A model generated the notes under the pieces. It was given only the letters and a program-made list of their open reading frames with translations. It was not told the origin of the DNA and searched no databases. 5,020 nucleotides of DNA from a virus (Duplodnaviria; Heunggongvirae; Uroviricota; Caudoviricetes), in the IMG/VR virus record IMGVR_UViG_3300013835_000025. One strand, written 5' to 3'. A program made the translations under genes and the position numbers. Below are positions 1,642 to 4,331 of the stretch, in pieces (positions within the stretch are counted from its first letter, which is position 1; each line of letters opens with the position of its first letter).

Positions 1642-2071
1642 TGCCGTCACGGTGCTGAAAACTAACCCCGATATGCTGCGGATATTCGTGGATAACGGGA
1701 GTATTGCCTCCACACTGGCGACGTCGTTGTCATTCGAAAAGCGTTACACGCTCAATGTGATTGTGACCGACTTTACCGGTGATTTTGACCTGCTCATTGT
1801 GCCGGTGCTGGCGTGGCTGCGGGAAAATCAGCCCGACATCATGACCACTGACGAAGGCCAGAAAAAAGGCTTCACATTTTATGCAGACATCAACAATGAC
1901 AGCAGCTTTGATATCAGTATCAGCCTGATGCTGACCGAGCGCACGCTGGTCAGTGAGGTTGACGGTGCGCTGCATGTGAAGAATATCCCGGAACCTCCGC
2001 CGCCGGAGCCGGTCACCCGCCCGATGGAGCTGTATATCAATCGCGAACTGGTGAGCAAGTGGGATGAATGA
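1604..2071 (+). CDS. R: Tail completion protein R (155 aa), P2 gpR family
   Basis: ATG at 1604; 155-aa product MLKPDSLRRALTDAVTVLKTNPDMLRIFVDNGS... Length and position after the lysis cassette match P2 gene R. Overlaps lysC 3' end and the S start. Confidence 0.85.
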   Translation: MLKPDSLRRALTDAVTVLKTNPDMLRIFVDNGSIASTLATSLSFEKRYTLNVIVTDFTGDFDLLIVPVLAWLRENQPDIMTTDEGQKKGFTFYADINNDSSFDISISLMLTERTLVSEVDGALHVKNIPEPPPPEPVTRPMELYINRELVSKWDE

Positions 2072-2522
2072 GTTTAAGCGTTTTGAAGACCGGCTGACCG
2101 GACTTATTGAGTCGCTGTCACCGTCAGGGCGCCGGAGACTGGCGGTAGATATTGCGAAGAAGCTGCGCCAGCGCCAGCAGCAGCGAATTAAATTACAAAA
2201 AGCCCCGGATGGTACGCCGTATGTACCGAGAAAAAACCAACCAGTACGAAATAAGAAAGGCCGGATAAAGCGGGAAATGTTTGTGAAATTACGCACTAAC
2301 CGGTTTATGAAAGCAACAGGTAGCGAGAGTGCGGCTGTGGTGGCGTTTGCCAGCGGAGTACAACGAATTGCGCGGGTACATCAATTAGGGCTTAGGGATA
2401 AGCCGGGGCGTAACAGTGCTGTGGTGGAATATCCTGTTCGTGAGTTATTTGGTTTTGACAAGGAATCTATACAATTGATAGAAAGGGAGTTATTAGTGAT
2501 TCTATCGAAAGATGTTATATGA
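2064..2522 (+). CDS. S: Tail completion protein S (152 aa), P2 gpS family; the last ~25 codons lie in AT-rich sequence
   Basis: ATG at 2064 overlapping the R stop (ATGAATGA); product MNEFKRFEDRLTGLIESLSPSGRRRLAVDIAKKLRQRQQQRIKLQK... Position and size fit P2 gene S. Base composition falls from about 2440 onwards, so the C-terminus (...FDKESIQLIERELLVILSKDVI) may be of different origin. Confidence 0.8.
   Translation: MNEFKRFEDRLTGLIESLSPSGRRRLAVDIAKKLRQRQQQRIKLQKAPDGTPYVPRKNQPVRNKKGRIKREMFVKLRTNRFMKATGSESAAVVAFASGVQRIARVHQLGLRDKPGRNSAVVEYPVRELFGFDKESIQLIERELLVILSKDVI
2455..2484 (+). promoter_or_regulatory. Candidate sigma70-like promoter inside the 3' end of S, reading toward the cargo gene
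   Basis: Perfect -35 hexamer TTGACA at 2455-2460; after an 18-nt spacer, TAGAAA at 2479-2484 is a weak -10 (4 of 6 matches to TATAAT). Weak overall, and the region is AT-rich, so chance matches are expected. Confidence 0.18.
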
Positions 2523-3274
2523 GACGGGTGTTTGTGGATAAAAAGTTTTCCATTTTGAGAAAAAGAGTAAAGCATTCTCAAAAGAAAGTTATGGATTGTA
2601 TTATTGCCGACCATAATGCTGATATATGTGTGTTATGCGGGAGTTCTGACGATATTACTCGTGAGCACATTATTCCTCAGTGGGCCTTTGAGTCAAATGC
2701 TGAAAAATCTTTAATTAATAAAAAGAATAATCAGTCAACTCATTACATTAAAGCCACTGTACCAGCATGCAGAGTGTGCAATTCTGATTTGCTGGGAGTG
2801 TTTGAGTATAACCTGAAGAAATTTCTTACGGAAAAGAGGGGGGATGAGTTAACAGATTATGAATATGATTGCATCATATGGTGGTTGCAATACATGGGCT
2901 TTAAGTTGCAATTAATGGATTTACGGACCCGCTTTCTCAGGTATAAAGGGGGTGATTATATCCCTTTCCTTGCAAACTTCCCGGTTGCAATGTTTTGGGG
3001 GAATGTCGATACGACGCCGGGGGATGTCTTCAGGATTATACGAAAATCGCGACGCAATCTGATGTCGAAATGGAAGGATAAAAAACATAATTCTTTGATG
3101 GTTTTTGAAACATCAAACAAGAGTTTTCATTTCTTTCATAAGGTTGATGAATTTATTTTTATTGAAATGCCTCAGGTTAAGAAGGCGTTTTTCTTCTTTT
3201 TTAATAAAGAATTTGACAGCCATGATTTAGCTCATGAGGAGTGTATGAAGATTATAGAGAAGTGTTACAACTAA
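2519..3274 (+). CDS. AT-rich cargo gene: HNH-motif (zinc-ribbon ββα-Me) nuclease-like protein with an uncharacterised C-terminal domain (251 aa)
   Basis: Single uninterrupted ORF in the S-V gap. Motifs seen directly in the translation: C37-V-L-C40-G, R-E-H50-I-I-P, Asn-rich linker, C84-R-V-C87-N88, i.e. CxxC...H...N...CxxC as in HNH endonucleases. Start ATG overlaps the S stop (ATGA); an alternative in-frame ATG is at 2591 (MDCIIADH...). Codon usage is strongly A/T biased, unlike its neighbours. Confidence 0.75.
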   Translation: MRRVFVDKKFSILRKRVKHSQKKVMDCIIADHNADICVLCGSSDDITREHIIPQWAFESNAEKSLINKKNNQSTHYIKATVPACRVCNSDLLGVFEYNLKKFLTEKRGDELTDYEYDCIIWWLQYMGFKLQLMDLRTRFLRYKGGDYIPFLANFPVAMFWGNVDTTPGDVFRIIRKSRRNLMSKWKDKKHNSLMVFETSNKSFHFFHKVDEFIFIEMPQVKKAFFFFFNKEFDSHDLAHEECMKIIEKCYN

Positions 3275-3283
3275 TATTTATTA

Positions 3284-3302
3284 TGTTGTGTCACGGCTGA
3301 CA
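3284..3302 (+). promoter_or_regulatory. Inverted repeat TGTCA-CGGC-TGACA in the cargo-V intergenic region; possible activator site for a V-operon late promoter
   Basis: Perfect 5-bp arms TGTCA/TGACA with a 4-nt spacer at 3288-3301, nested in a TGT...ACA context (TGT 3284-3286, ACA 3300-3302). P2-family late promoters are described as carrying a TGT-N12-ACA partial dyad near -55 that is recognised by Ogr/Delta-type activators; here the spacing is N13 or N10, not N12, and the dyad is only about 50-65 bp from the V ATG, so the geometry is imperfect. Confidence 0.25.
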
Positions 3303-3351
3303 GAGTCCTCCATGATTGCTGCTGGTATCGTCCGGCGGCATCCTTCCCGTT

Positions 3352-3987
3352 ATGAACACTCTCGCAAATATTCAGGAACTCGCGCGCGCACTGCGCAACA
3401 TGATTCGCACCGGCGTTATCGTCGAAACCGACCTTAACGCCGGTCGCTGCCGTGTGCAGACCGGCGGCATGTGCACCGACTGGCTTCAGTGGCTGACCCA
3501 TCGTGCCGGGCGTTCGCGCACATGGTGGGCACCTTCCGTGGGGGAACAGGTGCTGATTCTGGCCGTGGGCGGTGAACTCGACACGGCGTTTGTTCTGCCG
3601 GGGATTTATTCCGGCGATAATCCCGCGCCGTCTGCGTCGGCGGATGCCCTGCATATCCGTTTCCCTGACGGGGCGGTGATTGAGTATGAACCCGAAACCA
3701 GTGCACTTACGGTAAGCGGAATTAAAACGGCCAGCGTGACGGCTTCTGATTCTGTTACTGCCACGGTGCCGGTGGTCACGGTGAAAGCATCAACCCGCGT
3801 CACCCTGGACACACCAGAGGTGGTCTGCACCAACAGGCTGATTACCGGCACGCTGGAAGTGCAGAAGGGCGGGACGATGCGCGGCAACATTGAACACACC
3901 GGCGGTGAACTCTCATCAAACGGTAAGGTACTGCATACCCATAAACACCCCGGCGACAGCGGCGGCACAACCGGGAGTCCTCTATGA
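3352..3987 (+). CDS. V: Baseplate central spike protein V (211 aa), P2 gpV family
   Basis: ATG at 3352 in frame with the 3316..3987 ORF; product MNTLANIQELARALRNMIRTGVIVETDLNAGRCRVQTGGMCTDWLQWL... matches my recollection of P2 gpV. The C-terminus (KVLHTHKHPGDSGGTTGSPL) has a His-rich apex. The track's 3316 start is a TTG with no Shine-Dalgarno. Confidence 0.88.
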   Translation: MNTLANIQELARALRNMIRTGVIVETDLNAGRCRVQTGGMCTDWLQWLTHRAGRSRTWWAPSVGEQVLILAVGGELDTAFVLPGIYSGDNPAPSASADALHIRFPDGAVIEYEPETSALTVSGIKTASVTASDSVTATVPVVTVKASTRVTLDTPEVVCTNRLITGTLEVQKGGTMRGNIEHTGGELSSNGKVLHTHKHPGDSGGTTGSPL

Positions 3988-4331
3988 CAGCGCGTTATCT
4001 CGGAATGAATCGCAGTGATGGCCTGACGGTCACTGACCTTGAGCATATCAGCCAGAGTATCGGCGATATCCTGCGCACGCCGGTCGGCTCACGGGTGATG
4101 CGTCGTGATTACGGCTCGTTGCTGGCGTCAATGATTGACCAGCCGCAGACCCCGGCGCTTGAGTTGCAGATTAAGGTCGCCTGTTACATGGCCGTGCTGA
4201 AATGGGAACCCCGCGTCACCCTGTCATCCGTCACCACTGAGCGCAGTTTTGACGGGCGAATGACGGTCACGTTAACCGGTCAGCACAACGACACCGGCCA
4301 GCCACTTTCGTTAACCATCCCTGTGAGTTGA
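3984..4331 (+). CDS. W: Baseplate wedge protein W (115 aa), GPW/gp25 family
   Basis: ATG at 3984 overlapping the V stop (ATGA), with GGGAG 7 nt upstream. 115-aa product MTARYLGMNRSDGLTVTDLEHISQSIGDILRTPVGSRVMRRDYGSLLASMIDQP...; size and position match P2 gene W. Confidence 0.88.
   Translation: MTARYLGMNRSDGLTVTDLEHISQSIGDILRTPVGSRVMRRDYGSLLASMIDQPQTPALELQIKVACYMAVLKWEPRVTLSSVTTERSFDGRMTVTLTGQHNDTGQPLSLTIPVS

What the first reader, a model, noticed from the sequence alone, without database searches (positions are those of the whole stretch)
2440..3290. Sharp compositional island whose left boundary lies inside the S coding sequence
Base composition switches from the GC-rich backbone to AT-rich sequence at about 2440, roughly 25 codons before the S stop, and switches back within about 15 bp after the cargo stop (near 3285-3290). 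The acquired segment therefore appears to carry its own version of the S C-terminus (...KESIQLIERELLVILSKDVI) plus the cargo gene, a recombination junction inside a tail gene rather than a clean intergenic insertion. This suggests cassette exchange by homologous recombination in S and V flanks. It also raises the question of whether the chimeric S C-terminus is still functional.
Basis: seen in the sequence. Interest (0 to 1): 0.5.

Follow-up and report, generated by a model that had tools for sequence, protein, structure and literature searches.

The report
Phage cargo cassette carrying its own S-tail
In this P2-like prophage of E. coli, an AT-rich accessory gene sits between tail genes S and V. 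It came in as one block with its own version of the last 21 codons of the essential S gene, which shows that such cassettes are swapped by recombination inside the flanking phage genes.

Summary
A maximum-likelihood change-point places an AT-rich island at 2428-3287, with GC 0.36 inside and 0.57 outside; the likelihood ratio is 137, against at most 20 in shuffles.

The window is the late region of a P2-like (Peduovirus) prophage: K, lysA/B/C, R, S, cargo, V, W. The S-V gap is the known "orf30" moron site.

An E. coli prophage with a different cargo shares this S allele at 99% identity up to base 2457 and then falls to 34%. All cargo-free relatives have GC-normal S ends.

In 24 lineages the same cargo family (43-100% identity) always abuts S. 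It always comes with a related AT-rich tail of the form GFD..SIQLIE.

Of 26 cargo types surveyed, 13 carry their own AT-rich S tail and 13 are clean intergenic insertions. Left junctions cluster just after conserved S motifs (VHQ, GF). Right junctions sit at the activator site of the V-operon promoter, 69 nt upstream of V.

The chimeric S works: the viable phage R18C has the same tail and cargo. The cargo is an uncharacterised protein with an HNH-like motif.

This is a new detail of a known kind of system. Why the tails are AT-rich remains unexplained.

The parts
2064..2522 (+). Gene S (tail completion / virion morphogenesis protein, 152 aa), a three-part mosaic
2064..2141 (+). S 5' segment of the P2/L-413C type
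   Evidence: The ML change-point against L-413C/P2-type S falls at 2135-2142, with left identity of about 1.0. The blastn high-identity block against L-413C ends at 2221. L110 carries the P2-type sequence further, to about 2175.
2142..2457 (+). S middle segment: a divergent 'window-type' allele (GC 0.48, GC3 0.42) shared with E. coli prophages that carry other cargo
   Evidence: It is shared at 97-99% identity with L005 up to 2457, with L007 (Pycsar) up to 2384, and with the L006/L027 cargo type (L027 compared) up to 2349. It is only about 51-55% identical to P2-type S.
2458..2522 (+). Cassette-linked S tail: codons 132-152 (DKESIQLIERELLVILSKDVI) plus the stop; GC 0.28
   Evidence: Identity to L005 drops from 0.992 to 0.339 at 2458. 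The tail family co-occurs with the cargo family in 24 lineages. It is similar in register to backbone S tails (z=3.6, p=0.0002). The tail is identical in the viable phage R18C.
2534..3274 (+). Cargo gene: 246-aa protein of unknown function with an HNH-like CxxC...EH...CxxCN motif. An alternative ATG at 2519 overlaps the S stop.
   Evidence: Start taken from PGAP and from homologues that begin MDKKF. Hits phrog_10503, function unknown. HNH_5 is below threshold at 16.2 bits against a cut-off of 27.5. C32, C35, E44, H45, C79, C82 and N83 are invariant in 19 homologues. No PADLOC or NCBIfam hit.
3275..3282 (.). AT-rich spacer; right end of the cassette
   Evidence: ML right boundary at 3287, support 3280-3317. 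The conserved backbone motif starts at 3283.
3283..3351 (+). V-operon late promoter region (pV), retained backbone. 3281-3308 is homologous to the activator-binding site annotated in P2. A GC-rich hairpin lies at 3317-3340.
   Evidence: The P2 record annotates the activator-binding site for pV at -69 to -42 from the V ATG. The same ATGTTGT motif sits at -71 to -65 in the window, its A two bases upstream of where P2's annotated site begins. GTTGT at about -69 is conserved in nearly all loci with or without cargo. High identity to L-413C resumes at 3315.
3352..3987 (+). Gene V (baseplate spike)
   Evidence: PF04717 and PF18715. 97-99% identical to P2-type V.
2428..3287 (.). Compositional (AT-rich) island as defined by maximum likelihood

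Best explanation
The island is an accessory-gene ('moron', possibly defence) cassette at the known S-V (orf30) variable site of P2-like phages. That site is the boundary between the late O operon, which ends with S, and the V operon.

Shown:
- The exchangeable unit is not just the gene. It is a non-homologous block, 2458-3282. The block holds a cassette-specific AT-rich replacement for the last 21 codons of the essential gene S, an 11-nt spacer, the cargo gene and 8 nt of spacer.
- The replacement tail is a genuine, homologous S C-terminus that keeps the conserved residues. It works, because the viable phage R18C carries it.
- Tail and cargo have been inherited together across at least 24 lineages of Enterobacterales P2-like phages, while the rest of S follows the phage backbone.

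Inferred:
- The block moves between co-resident or co-infecting P2-like phages by homologous recombination.
- Left crossovers fall just downstream of the most conserved nucleotide stretches of S (VVEF, VHQ, GF).
- Right crossovers fall in or beside the pV promoter, beginning at its activator-binding site 69 nt upstream of V.
- In cargo-free phages the S stop codon directly abuts that site, so there is no neutral intergenic DNA. Once a divergent tail is linked to a cargo, no homology remains that could separate them.
- Repeated swaps with different left crossovers produced the stepped mosaic seen in this S: P2-type, then a divergent body, then the tail.
- The cargo starts 11 nt after the S stop and no terminator was detected between them, so it is probably transcribed as the last gene of the late O operon.

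Not explained: why the tail stays AT-rich.
For: - Composition.
- Same S body with a different cargo and a different tail: L005, L007 and L006.
- Cargo-free relatives have GC-normal tails. The 2x2 table is 13/13 against 0/13 (Fisher p=0.0014).
- The 13 cassette types with their own tail have the cargo ORF a median of 16 nt from the S stop. The 13 clean insertions have a median of 235 nt (p=3e-5).
- The cargo family always comes with the same tail family in 24 lineages. Backbones have GC 0.55-0.62 and tails 0.22-0.37.
- Mantel test: tail against cargo rho=0.74 (p=2e-4). The partial correlation is 0.63 given the S body. Tail against body given cargo is 0.29.
- All 13 cassette-specific tails are similar in register to backbone tails (z=2-5). 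The Pfam match runs to residue 144 of 152.
- Junctions cluster at 2349, 2384-2400, 2418 and 2451-2458, each just after a conserved stretch.
- The right ends share GTTGT at -69, which matches the activator site annotated in P2.
- No flanking direct or inverted repeats.
- R18C is viable and carries the same tail and cargo (PMC6823313).
- Out-of-sample check: 3 of 3 S proteins chosen for AT-codon-rich tails had abutting AT-rich cargo, and 2 of 3 with ordinary tails were cargo-free.
Against: - No recombination event was observed directly. Junctions are inferred from present-day sequences. Their clustering could reflect selection for working chimeras rather than crossover preference.
- S body and cargo identities are themselves correlated (rho=0.49). 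Part of the tail-cargo correlation is therefore plain vertical co-descent.
- The compositional edge (2409-2448) lies about 10-50 nt upstream of the homology junction (2457). AT-rich sequence therefore begins in S sequence that is shared with other cargo types.
- Late-operon co-transcription is inferred from spacing only.
- Consensus scans found no conserved sigma-70 promoter in the tail. No embedded terminator was found for minus-strand cargo. No function is therefore shown for the AT-richness.
Confidence: 0.8

Rival explanations
1. Donor-phage relic. The tail, and perhaps the divergent S body, is a passively inherited piece of the S gene of a distant P2-like phage from an AT-rich host. The cargo was first captured in that phage, and the AT-richness has no function.
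For: The tails are true S homologues. The stepped mosaic, with a body of intermediate GC (0.48, GC3 0.42), looks like successive imports. The cargo itself is AT-rich and also occurs on another kind of mobile element (L096).
Against: No S with an AT-rich composition along its whole length was found. This held among 121 close homologues, in the phage collection and in any of the 24 lineages. The AT-richness has persisted in GC 0.55-0.62 backbones over divergence down to 43% cargo identity. It would also need 13 unrelated cargo types to have arrived separately from AT-rich phages.
Confidence: 0.3
2. Functional coupling. The AT-rich tail is kept by selection because it holds signals for the cargo inside S coding sequence. 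Candidates are a translation-initiation region, a weak or regulated promoter, or a silencing (H-NS) nucleation site. On this reading tail and cargo are one functional unit.
For: The S stop to cargo start distance is only 5-19 nt in all 19 lineages examined. AT-richness is maintained over long divergence. Cassettes with their own tail are the ones that abut S. The same gene in a non-phage element has its own AT-rich upstream region with a palindrome instead of an S tail.
Against: No consensus sigma-70 promoter was found in the tail in the window, and none in 17 of 19 lineages. No embedded terminator was found for the tightly convergent minus-strand cargo types. Synonymous positions in the conserved SIQLIE codons do vary.
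Confidence: 0.2
3. Selection on S itself. The S C-terminus is hypervariable because it is targeted, for example by host or satellite defences. On this reading the cargo linkage is incidental hitchhiking.
For: There are 91 distinct tails among 121 close S homologues, while the S bodies stay uniform.
Against: Tail diversity is tied to the presence of cargo. Cargo-free phages show only a few GC-normal tail families. The AT codon bias of the tails is not predicted by selection at the protein level.
Confidence: 0.07
4. An ancestral AT-rich S end with a clean intergenic insertion, or insertion by a transposon or integrase.
For: None beyond the fact that clean insertions do exist at this site: 13 of 26 cargo types, including P2 orf30.
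Against: The tail differs between prophages that share the same S body. Cargo-free tails are GC-normal. There are no flanking repeats and no recombinase gene.
Confidence: 0.03

Closest known systems
P2 orf30 locus: the S-V 'moron' site of P2-like phages, one of three classical variable regions alongside old/tin and Z/fun
   Same: Same position between S and V. AT-rich, non-essential, and variable among collinear phages (PMC6823313; PMC3091744). R18C's ORF16 is this very cargo.
   Different: P2 orf30 lies on the opposite strand, 72 nt beyond an intact backbone-type S end. It has a terminator annotated after S and its own AT-rich version of the pV promoter. In the window the cassette replaces the S end and keeps a backbone-type promoter.
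Defence hotspots of P2-like phages and P4 satellites (Rousset 2022, PMC9122126; Vassallo 2022, PMC9519451; NAR 2026, PMC13586616)
   Same: Rapid swapping of unrelated AT-rich cargo between conserved phage genes. A known defence system (Pycsar) occupies this same slot in another E. coli prophage.
   Different: Those papers concentrate on the gpA-Q (old/tin) and Z/fun hotspots. PMC13586616 mentions homologous recombination between flanking homologous genes only as one possible mechanism; term searches of these papers found no mapped junctions or discussion of them. This cargo matches no known defence model.
Tail-fibre module exchange in P2, Mu, P1 and lambda: the C-terminal part of fibre gene H moves together with the downstream assembly gene G (recalled from the literature, not tested here)
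   Same: A mosaic junction inside a tail gene, with the C-terminal coding part and the next gene moving as one block.
   Different: In the fibre case the two parts depend on each other (chaperone and its domain). Here no functional link between the S tail and the cargo is shown.
Classical morons of lambdoid phages (an independent gene with its own promoter and terminator, inserted between genes)
   Same: An atypical-GC extra gene in a late structural region.
   Different: No own consensus promoter was detected and the one terminator-like hairpin lies inside the cargo ORF, within the shuffle expectation. The gene abuts S and the boundary is inside coding sequence.

Membership tests
S-V (orf30) accessory cassette of P2-like phages | Lies between orthologues of S and V in an otherwise collinear P2-like late region | tested here: met
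   Gene order K-lysA-lysB-lysC-R-S-cargo-V-W. 95-97% identical to Peduovirus genomes on both sides.
S-V (orf30) accessory cassette of P2-like phages | Content varies or is absent among close relatives; dispensable | tested here: met
   In the first 89-locus survey, 32 loci were cargo-free and the rest fell into 26 cargo types. A second scan with P2-type S gave 69 more cargo-free loci out of 80. Present in 77-79 of 5,426 complete E. coli genomes.
S-V (orf30) accessory cassette of P2-like phages | Base composition atypical for the phage | tested here: met
   GC 0.355 against 0.573.
Anti-phage defence system | Match to a model of a known or candidate defence protein | tested here: not met
   The best PADLOC hits have E=0.03. 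No NCBIfam hit.
Anti-phage defence system | Occupies a slot that holds known defence systems in related elements | tested here: met
   A Pycsar effector plus cyclase sits in the same slot in L007.
Anti-phage defence system | Protects cells from phage infection | not testable with these tools
   Needs cloning and a phage challenge.
HNH (beta-beta-alpha-metal) nuclease, Pfam HNH_5 | Score above the Pfam gathering threshold | tested here: not met
   16.2 bits against a cut-off of 27.5.
HNH (beta-beta-alpha-metal) nuclease, Pfam HNH_5 | Conserved CxxC ... (E/D)H ... CxxC/N metal-binding and catalytic residues | tested here: met
   C32, C35, E44, H45, C79, C82 and N83 are invariant in 19 homologues down to 41% identity.
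HNH (beta-beta-alpha-metal) nuclease, Pfam HNH_5 | Fold match to solved HNH nucleases | tested here: inconclusive
Transposon, IS or site-specific insertion | Terminal inverted repeats, target-site duplication, or an adjacent recombinase | tested here: not met
   No repeats flank 2428-3287. The island holds no other ORF of coding quality.
Phage_tail_S family (for the chimeric S) | Full-length family match that includes the C-terminal segment, in a phage that makes plaques | tested here: met
   PF05069 covers residues 3-144. The tail is similar in register to backbone tails. R18C is viable (PMC6823313) and has an identical tail.

The most novel reading that the evidence does not exclude
The cassette-specific S tails are not passengers. 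On this reading they form a dual-use segment in which the end of an essential tail gene also carries what the cargo needs. That could be expression or silencing signals, or a tail-protein allele matched to the cargo, for example one that the cargo's own activity spares. Half of all cargo types at this site would then come with a co-adapted piece of phage structural gene.
Probability: 0.15. Interest if true: 0.7.

Novelty: new variant of a known kind. Interest (0 to 1): 0.45.

Why it matters
How defence and other accessory genes are swapped so quickly at phage hotspots is an open question. A recent large survey of P2 and P4 elements lists homologous recombination only as one possibility (PMC13586616).

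This locus gives base-level junctions:
- Crossovers fall inside an essential tail gene, at its conserved motifs, and at a promoter's activator site.
- The unit of exchange includes a working piece of that gene.

Three practical points follow.
- Hotspot boundaries drawn at gene edges will miss part of the cassette.
- The S C-terminus tolerates wide replacement, which is useful for engineering P2-like phages and tailocin-like particles.
- An AT-codon-rich S tail predicted an abutting cargo gene in 3 of 3 proteins chosen on that criterion alone.

The site also holds Pycsar and many unknown genes, so it is a source of candidate defence genes.

Tried and rejected
- Promoter in the S tail. The consensus scan of the window and my own scan of 19 lineages found none conserved. 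A perfect TTGACA at 2455-2460 has no usable -10 partner.
- Terminator embedded in the tail for minus-strand cargo. The hairpins are weak in the tightly convergent cases.
- Relic duplicate of the S end at the right flank of clean insertions. None found.
- Donor phage for the tail. A tblastn of the 36-aa tail against 50,697 phage records found only R18C. None of the 121 close S homologues has an AT-type composition throughout.
- Solved structure of S. None found by sequence.
- Rfam scan of the window. Only a chance-level osmY hit, E=0.54.
- A second viral scan with P2-type S returned only full-length identical S. That result is biased by design, so it added counts but no new tail types.
- The genome-contig scan returned three loci. 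Two are labelled Sporobacter and Chryseobacterium. Both have P2-like R-S-cargo-V context at GC about 0.55, so the taxonomic labels are probably contamination.
Full report
WHAT THE WINDOW IS

The ORFs and their family matches identify the late region of a P2-like (Peduovirus) prophage:

| Feature | Coordinates |
|---|---|
| lysozyme K | 146-643 |
| lysA | 658-1083 |
| lysB | 1071-1496 |
| lysC | about 1396-1641 |
| tail gene R | 1604-2071 |
| tail gene S | 2064-2522 |
| one extra ORF (cargo) | see below |
| baseplate spike V | 3352-3987 |
| W | 3984-4331 |

THE OBSERVATION

The GC drop is real and sharp. A two-state maximum-likelihood segmentation places the island at 2428-3287. The left support interval is 2409-2448 and the right is 3280-3317. 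GC is 0.355 inside and 0.573 outside. The likelihood ratio is 137, against at most 19.6 in 100 shuffles.

The left edge therefore lies inside S. The last 20 S codons have GC 0.28, and GC is low at all three codon positions. The right edge is 9-13 nt after the cargo stop.

WHERE SEQUENCE HOMOLOGY BREAKS

Against the cargo-free phage L-413C, high identity ends at 2221 and resumes at 3315. Against phages carrying P2's orf30, it resumes exactly at the V start codon, 3352. So much more of S than the AT-rich tail differs from P2-type S.

A search of complete E. coli genomes with 2222-2522 found prophages that share this divergent S allele but carry other cargo:

| Locus | Cargo |
|---|---|
| L005 | a PCRF-domain protein |
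| L007 | a Pycsar effector and cyclase |
| L006 | an ATP-binding protein |

L005 is 99.2% identical to the window through 2457, at the conserved Gly-Phe. Identity over the remaining 62 nt of S is 34%. L007 diverges after 2384 and L027 (same cargo type as L006) after 2349.

SURVEY OF 89 S-V LOCI

The loci came from IMG/VR, reference phages and E. coli genomes. Thirty-two were cargo-free, with a 66-68 nt S-V gap and an S tail GC of 0.45-0.57. The others fell into 26 cargo types, in two classes:

| Class | Cargo types | S tail | Cargo ORF distance from S stop |
|---|---|---|---|
| Clean insertion (includes P2 orf30) | 13 | backbone-type, GC-normal | 72-558 nt |
| Own tail | 13 | cassette-specific, GC 0.23-0.42 | -3 to 101 nt |

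An AT-rich tail was never seen without cargo (Fisher p=0.0014). The spacing difference between the two classes is strong (p=3e-5).

A second scan with P2-type S found 69 more cargo-free loci and three clean cargo types. That scan selected for intact P2-type S, so it could not have found new tail types.

THE TAIL AND THE CARGO ARE INHERITED TOGETHER

Homologues of the cargo at 43-100% identity were found in 24 distinct lineages of P2-like phages. The hosts include Escherichia, Klebsiella, Kluyvera, Kosakonia, Yersinia and Enterobacter. In every one of these lineages:
- the gene starts 5-19 nt after the S stop (checked in 19 of the 24);
- the S tail is AT-rich (0.22-0.37) in a backbone of GC 0.55-0.62;
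- the tail belongs to one recognisable family, GFD..SIQLIE.E.L.

Tail similarity tracks cargo similarity (Mantel rho=0.74, p=2e-4). The partial correlation is 0.63 after controlling for the S body. Tail against body controlling for cargo is 0.29.

S body and cargo are themselves correlated (rho=0.49). Part of the signal is therefore shared descent. The pairs that share a body but differ in cargo are the cleaner evidence.

A 62%-identical homologue sits on an Erwinia conjugative element next to traG, with no S tail upstream. The gene can therefore move alone between kinds of mobile element. The fusion to an S tail is specific to the phage context.

ARE THE TAILS REAL S ENDS, AND DO THEY WORK?

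All 13 cassette-specific tails are significantly similar, in register, to backbone tails (z=2-5 against shuffles). They keep the near-invariant Glu and the hydrophobic positions. The Pfam S model aligns through residue 144 of 152.

R18C forms plaques on several hosts (PMC6823313). It has the identical 21-residue tail and a 98%-identical cargo. P2's record marks S as essential. The chimeric S is therefore functional.

WHERE THE JUNCTIONS ARE

Left junctions between loci that share an S body but differ in cargo cluster at window positions 2135-2142, 2349, 2384-2400, 2418 and 2451-2458. From 2349 onward, each cluster follows one of the most conserved nucleotide stretches of S: VVEF, VHQ and GF (conservation was profiled only from about 2316).

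For this cassette, and for its homologue in another backbone, the junction falls at the same codon, at 2457/2458.

On the right, nearly all cassettes end at a conserved GTTGT about 69 nt upstream of the V ATG; window 3283. In the P2 record this is the first base of the annotated activator-binding site of the pV late promoter.

In cargo-free phages the S stop codon directly abuts this site, so no neutral spacer exists. Some cassettes, P2's orf30 among them, also bring their own version of the promoter.

No direct or inverted repeats flank the island.

Taken together, this fits exchange by homologous recombination with crossovers in S and in the pV region. The non-homologous block between them stays intact. 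The three-step mosaic of this S is what repeated swaps with different left crossovers would leave: P2-type to about 2141, a divergent body with GC 0.48 to 2457, then the tail. L110 shows yet another left crossover.

THE CARGO

The supported start is GTG at 2534, which gives 246 aa. The family is small: 44 clusters, almost all from Enterobacterales. It belongs to phrog_10503, of unknown function.

It has an invariant CxxC...EH...CxxCN pattern typical of HNH zinc-finger nucleases. It is nevertheless below the Pfam threshold. It has no defence-model, NCBIfam or PDB match. A confident model (pLDDT 80) gave no informative fold match.

I call it an HNH-motif protein of unknown function. It is plausibly a defence or exclusion nuclease, given what else occupies this slot.

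WHAT REMAINS UNEXPLAINED

It is not clear why cassette-linked tails are AT-rich and stay so.
- I found no conserved consensus promoter in the tail.
- I found no embedded terminator for convergent cargo.
- I found no donor phage whose whole S is AT-rich.

Among 121 close S homologues there are 91 different tails on compositionally uniform bodies. I then chose S proteins by tail composition alone and looked up their loci. All three with AT-codon-rich tails had abutting AT-rich cargo. Two of the three with ordinary tails were cargo-free, and the third had a unique tail with an abutting cargo.

COMPARISON WITH WHAT IS KNOWN

The S-V (orf30) site is one of the three classical moron regions of P2-like phages (PMC6823313, PMC3091744). 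Fast swapping of defence genes at P2 and P4 hotspots is well documented (PMC9122126, PMC9519451, PMC13586616).

I did not find three points described in the papers I could read:
- about half of the cargo types at this site carry a private, AT-rich copy of the end of an essential tail gene;
- that copy co-diverges with the cargo;
- the junctions sit at defined conserved motifs and at the pV activator site.

I could not read the older P2 literature in subscription journals (Nilsson and Haggard-Ljungquist), so prior description cannot be excluded.

VERDICT

This is a new variant of a known kind of system, and interest is moderate.

Noticed in passing
L007:2820-4722; L005:2873-4324; L006:2893-4137; L236:3462-4445; L237:3210-3908: The same S-V slot in other prophages holds a Pycsar effector plus cyclase, a PCRF-domain protein, an ATP-binding protein, a DUF4917 protein and an 8xMP membrane protein. 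This classical 'orf30' site therefore acts as a defence or accessory hotspot that recent hotspot papers barely cover.
   Followed up: partly
L036, L045, L048, L054, L063, L068, L073, L080, L084, L088: about 45 nt ending at -69 from V: Ten clean insertions with unrelated cargo share a conserved right-end element, 'catggatgtgtcaggtcaaatccgggctgatacagataac', just upstream of the pV activator site. It is absent from cargo-free phages and is not a relic S end. Its role is unknown.
   Followed up: partly
window 3317-3340: A GC-rich hairpin (TGCTGCTGG-tatcgt-CCGGCGGCA) lies inside the pV promoter region and is conserved in cargo-free relatives. P2's annotated O-operon terminator lies in its orf30 cassette. 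This hairpin could therefore serve as the O-operon terminator where no cassette is present.
   Followed up: no
L096:3923-4744: A 62%-identical cargo homologue sits on an Erwinia conjugative element beside traG. It has no S tail, and a 28-nt palindrome (tgtcaaaatattaatttatattttgaca) lies upstream. This shows transfer between kinds of mobile element.
   Followed up: partly
L011 / L137 (IMG/VR 2627853678_000002): The cargo is split into two overlapping tblastn pieces, and the S-V gap is 1 nt shorter. This is probably a frameshifted copy.
   Followed up: no
L092/L132 and L129-L131, between cargo and V: The cargo is followed by a second gene on the minus strand before the pV site, leaving 973-1179 nt between the cargo end and V. 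These are compound cassettes built on the same tail-plus-cargo unit.
   Followed up: no
window 2455-2460: A perfect -35 hexamer, TTGACA, is formed by the Phe-Asp-Lys codons exactly at the junction. No acceptable -10 lies at 16-18 nt (my reading of the sequence; the consensus scan reports no promoter there).
   Followed up: yes
L091 and L092 (genome contigs): Contigs labelled Sporobacter termitidis (a metagenome-assembled genome) and Chryseobacterium sp. carry enterobacterial-type P2-like R-S-cargo-V at GC about 0.55. This is probably contamination or mis-binning.
   Followed up: no
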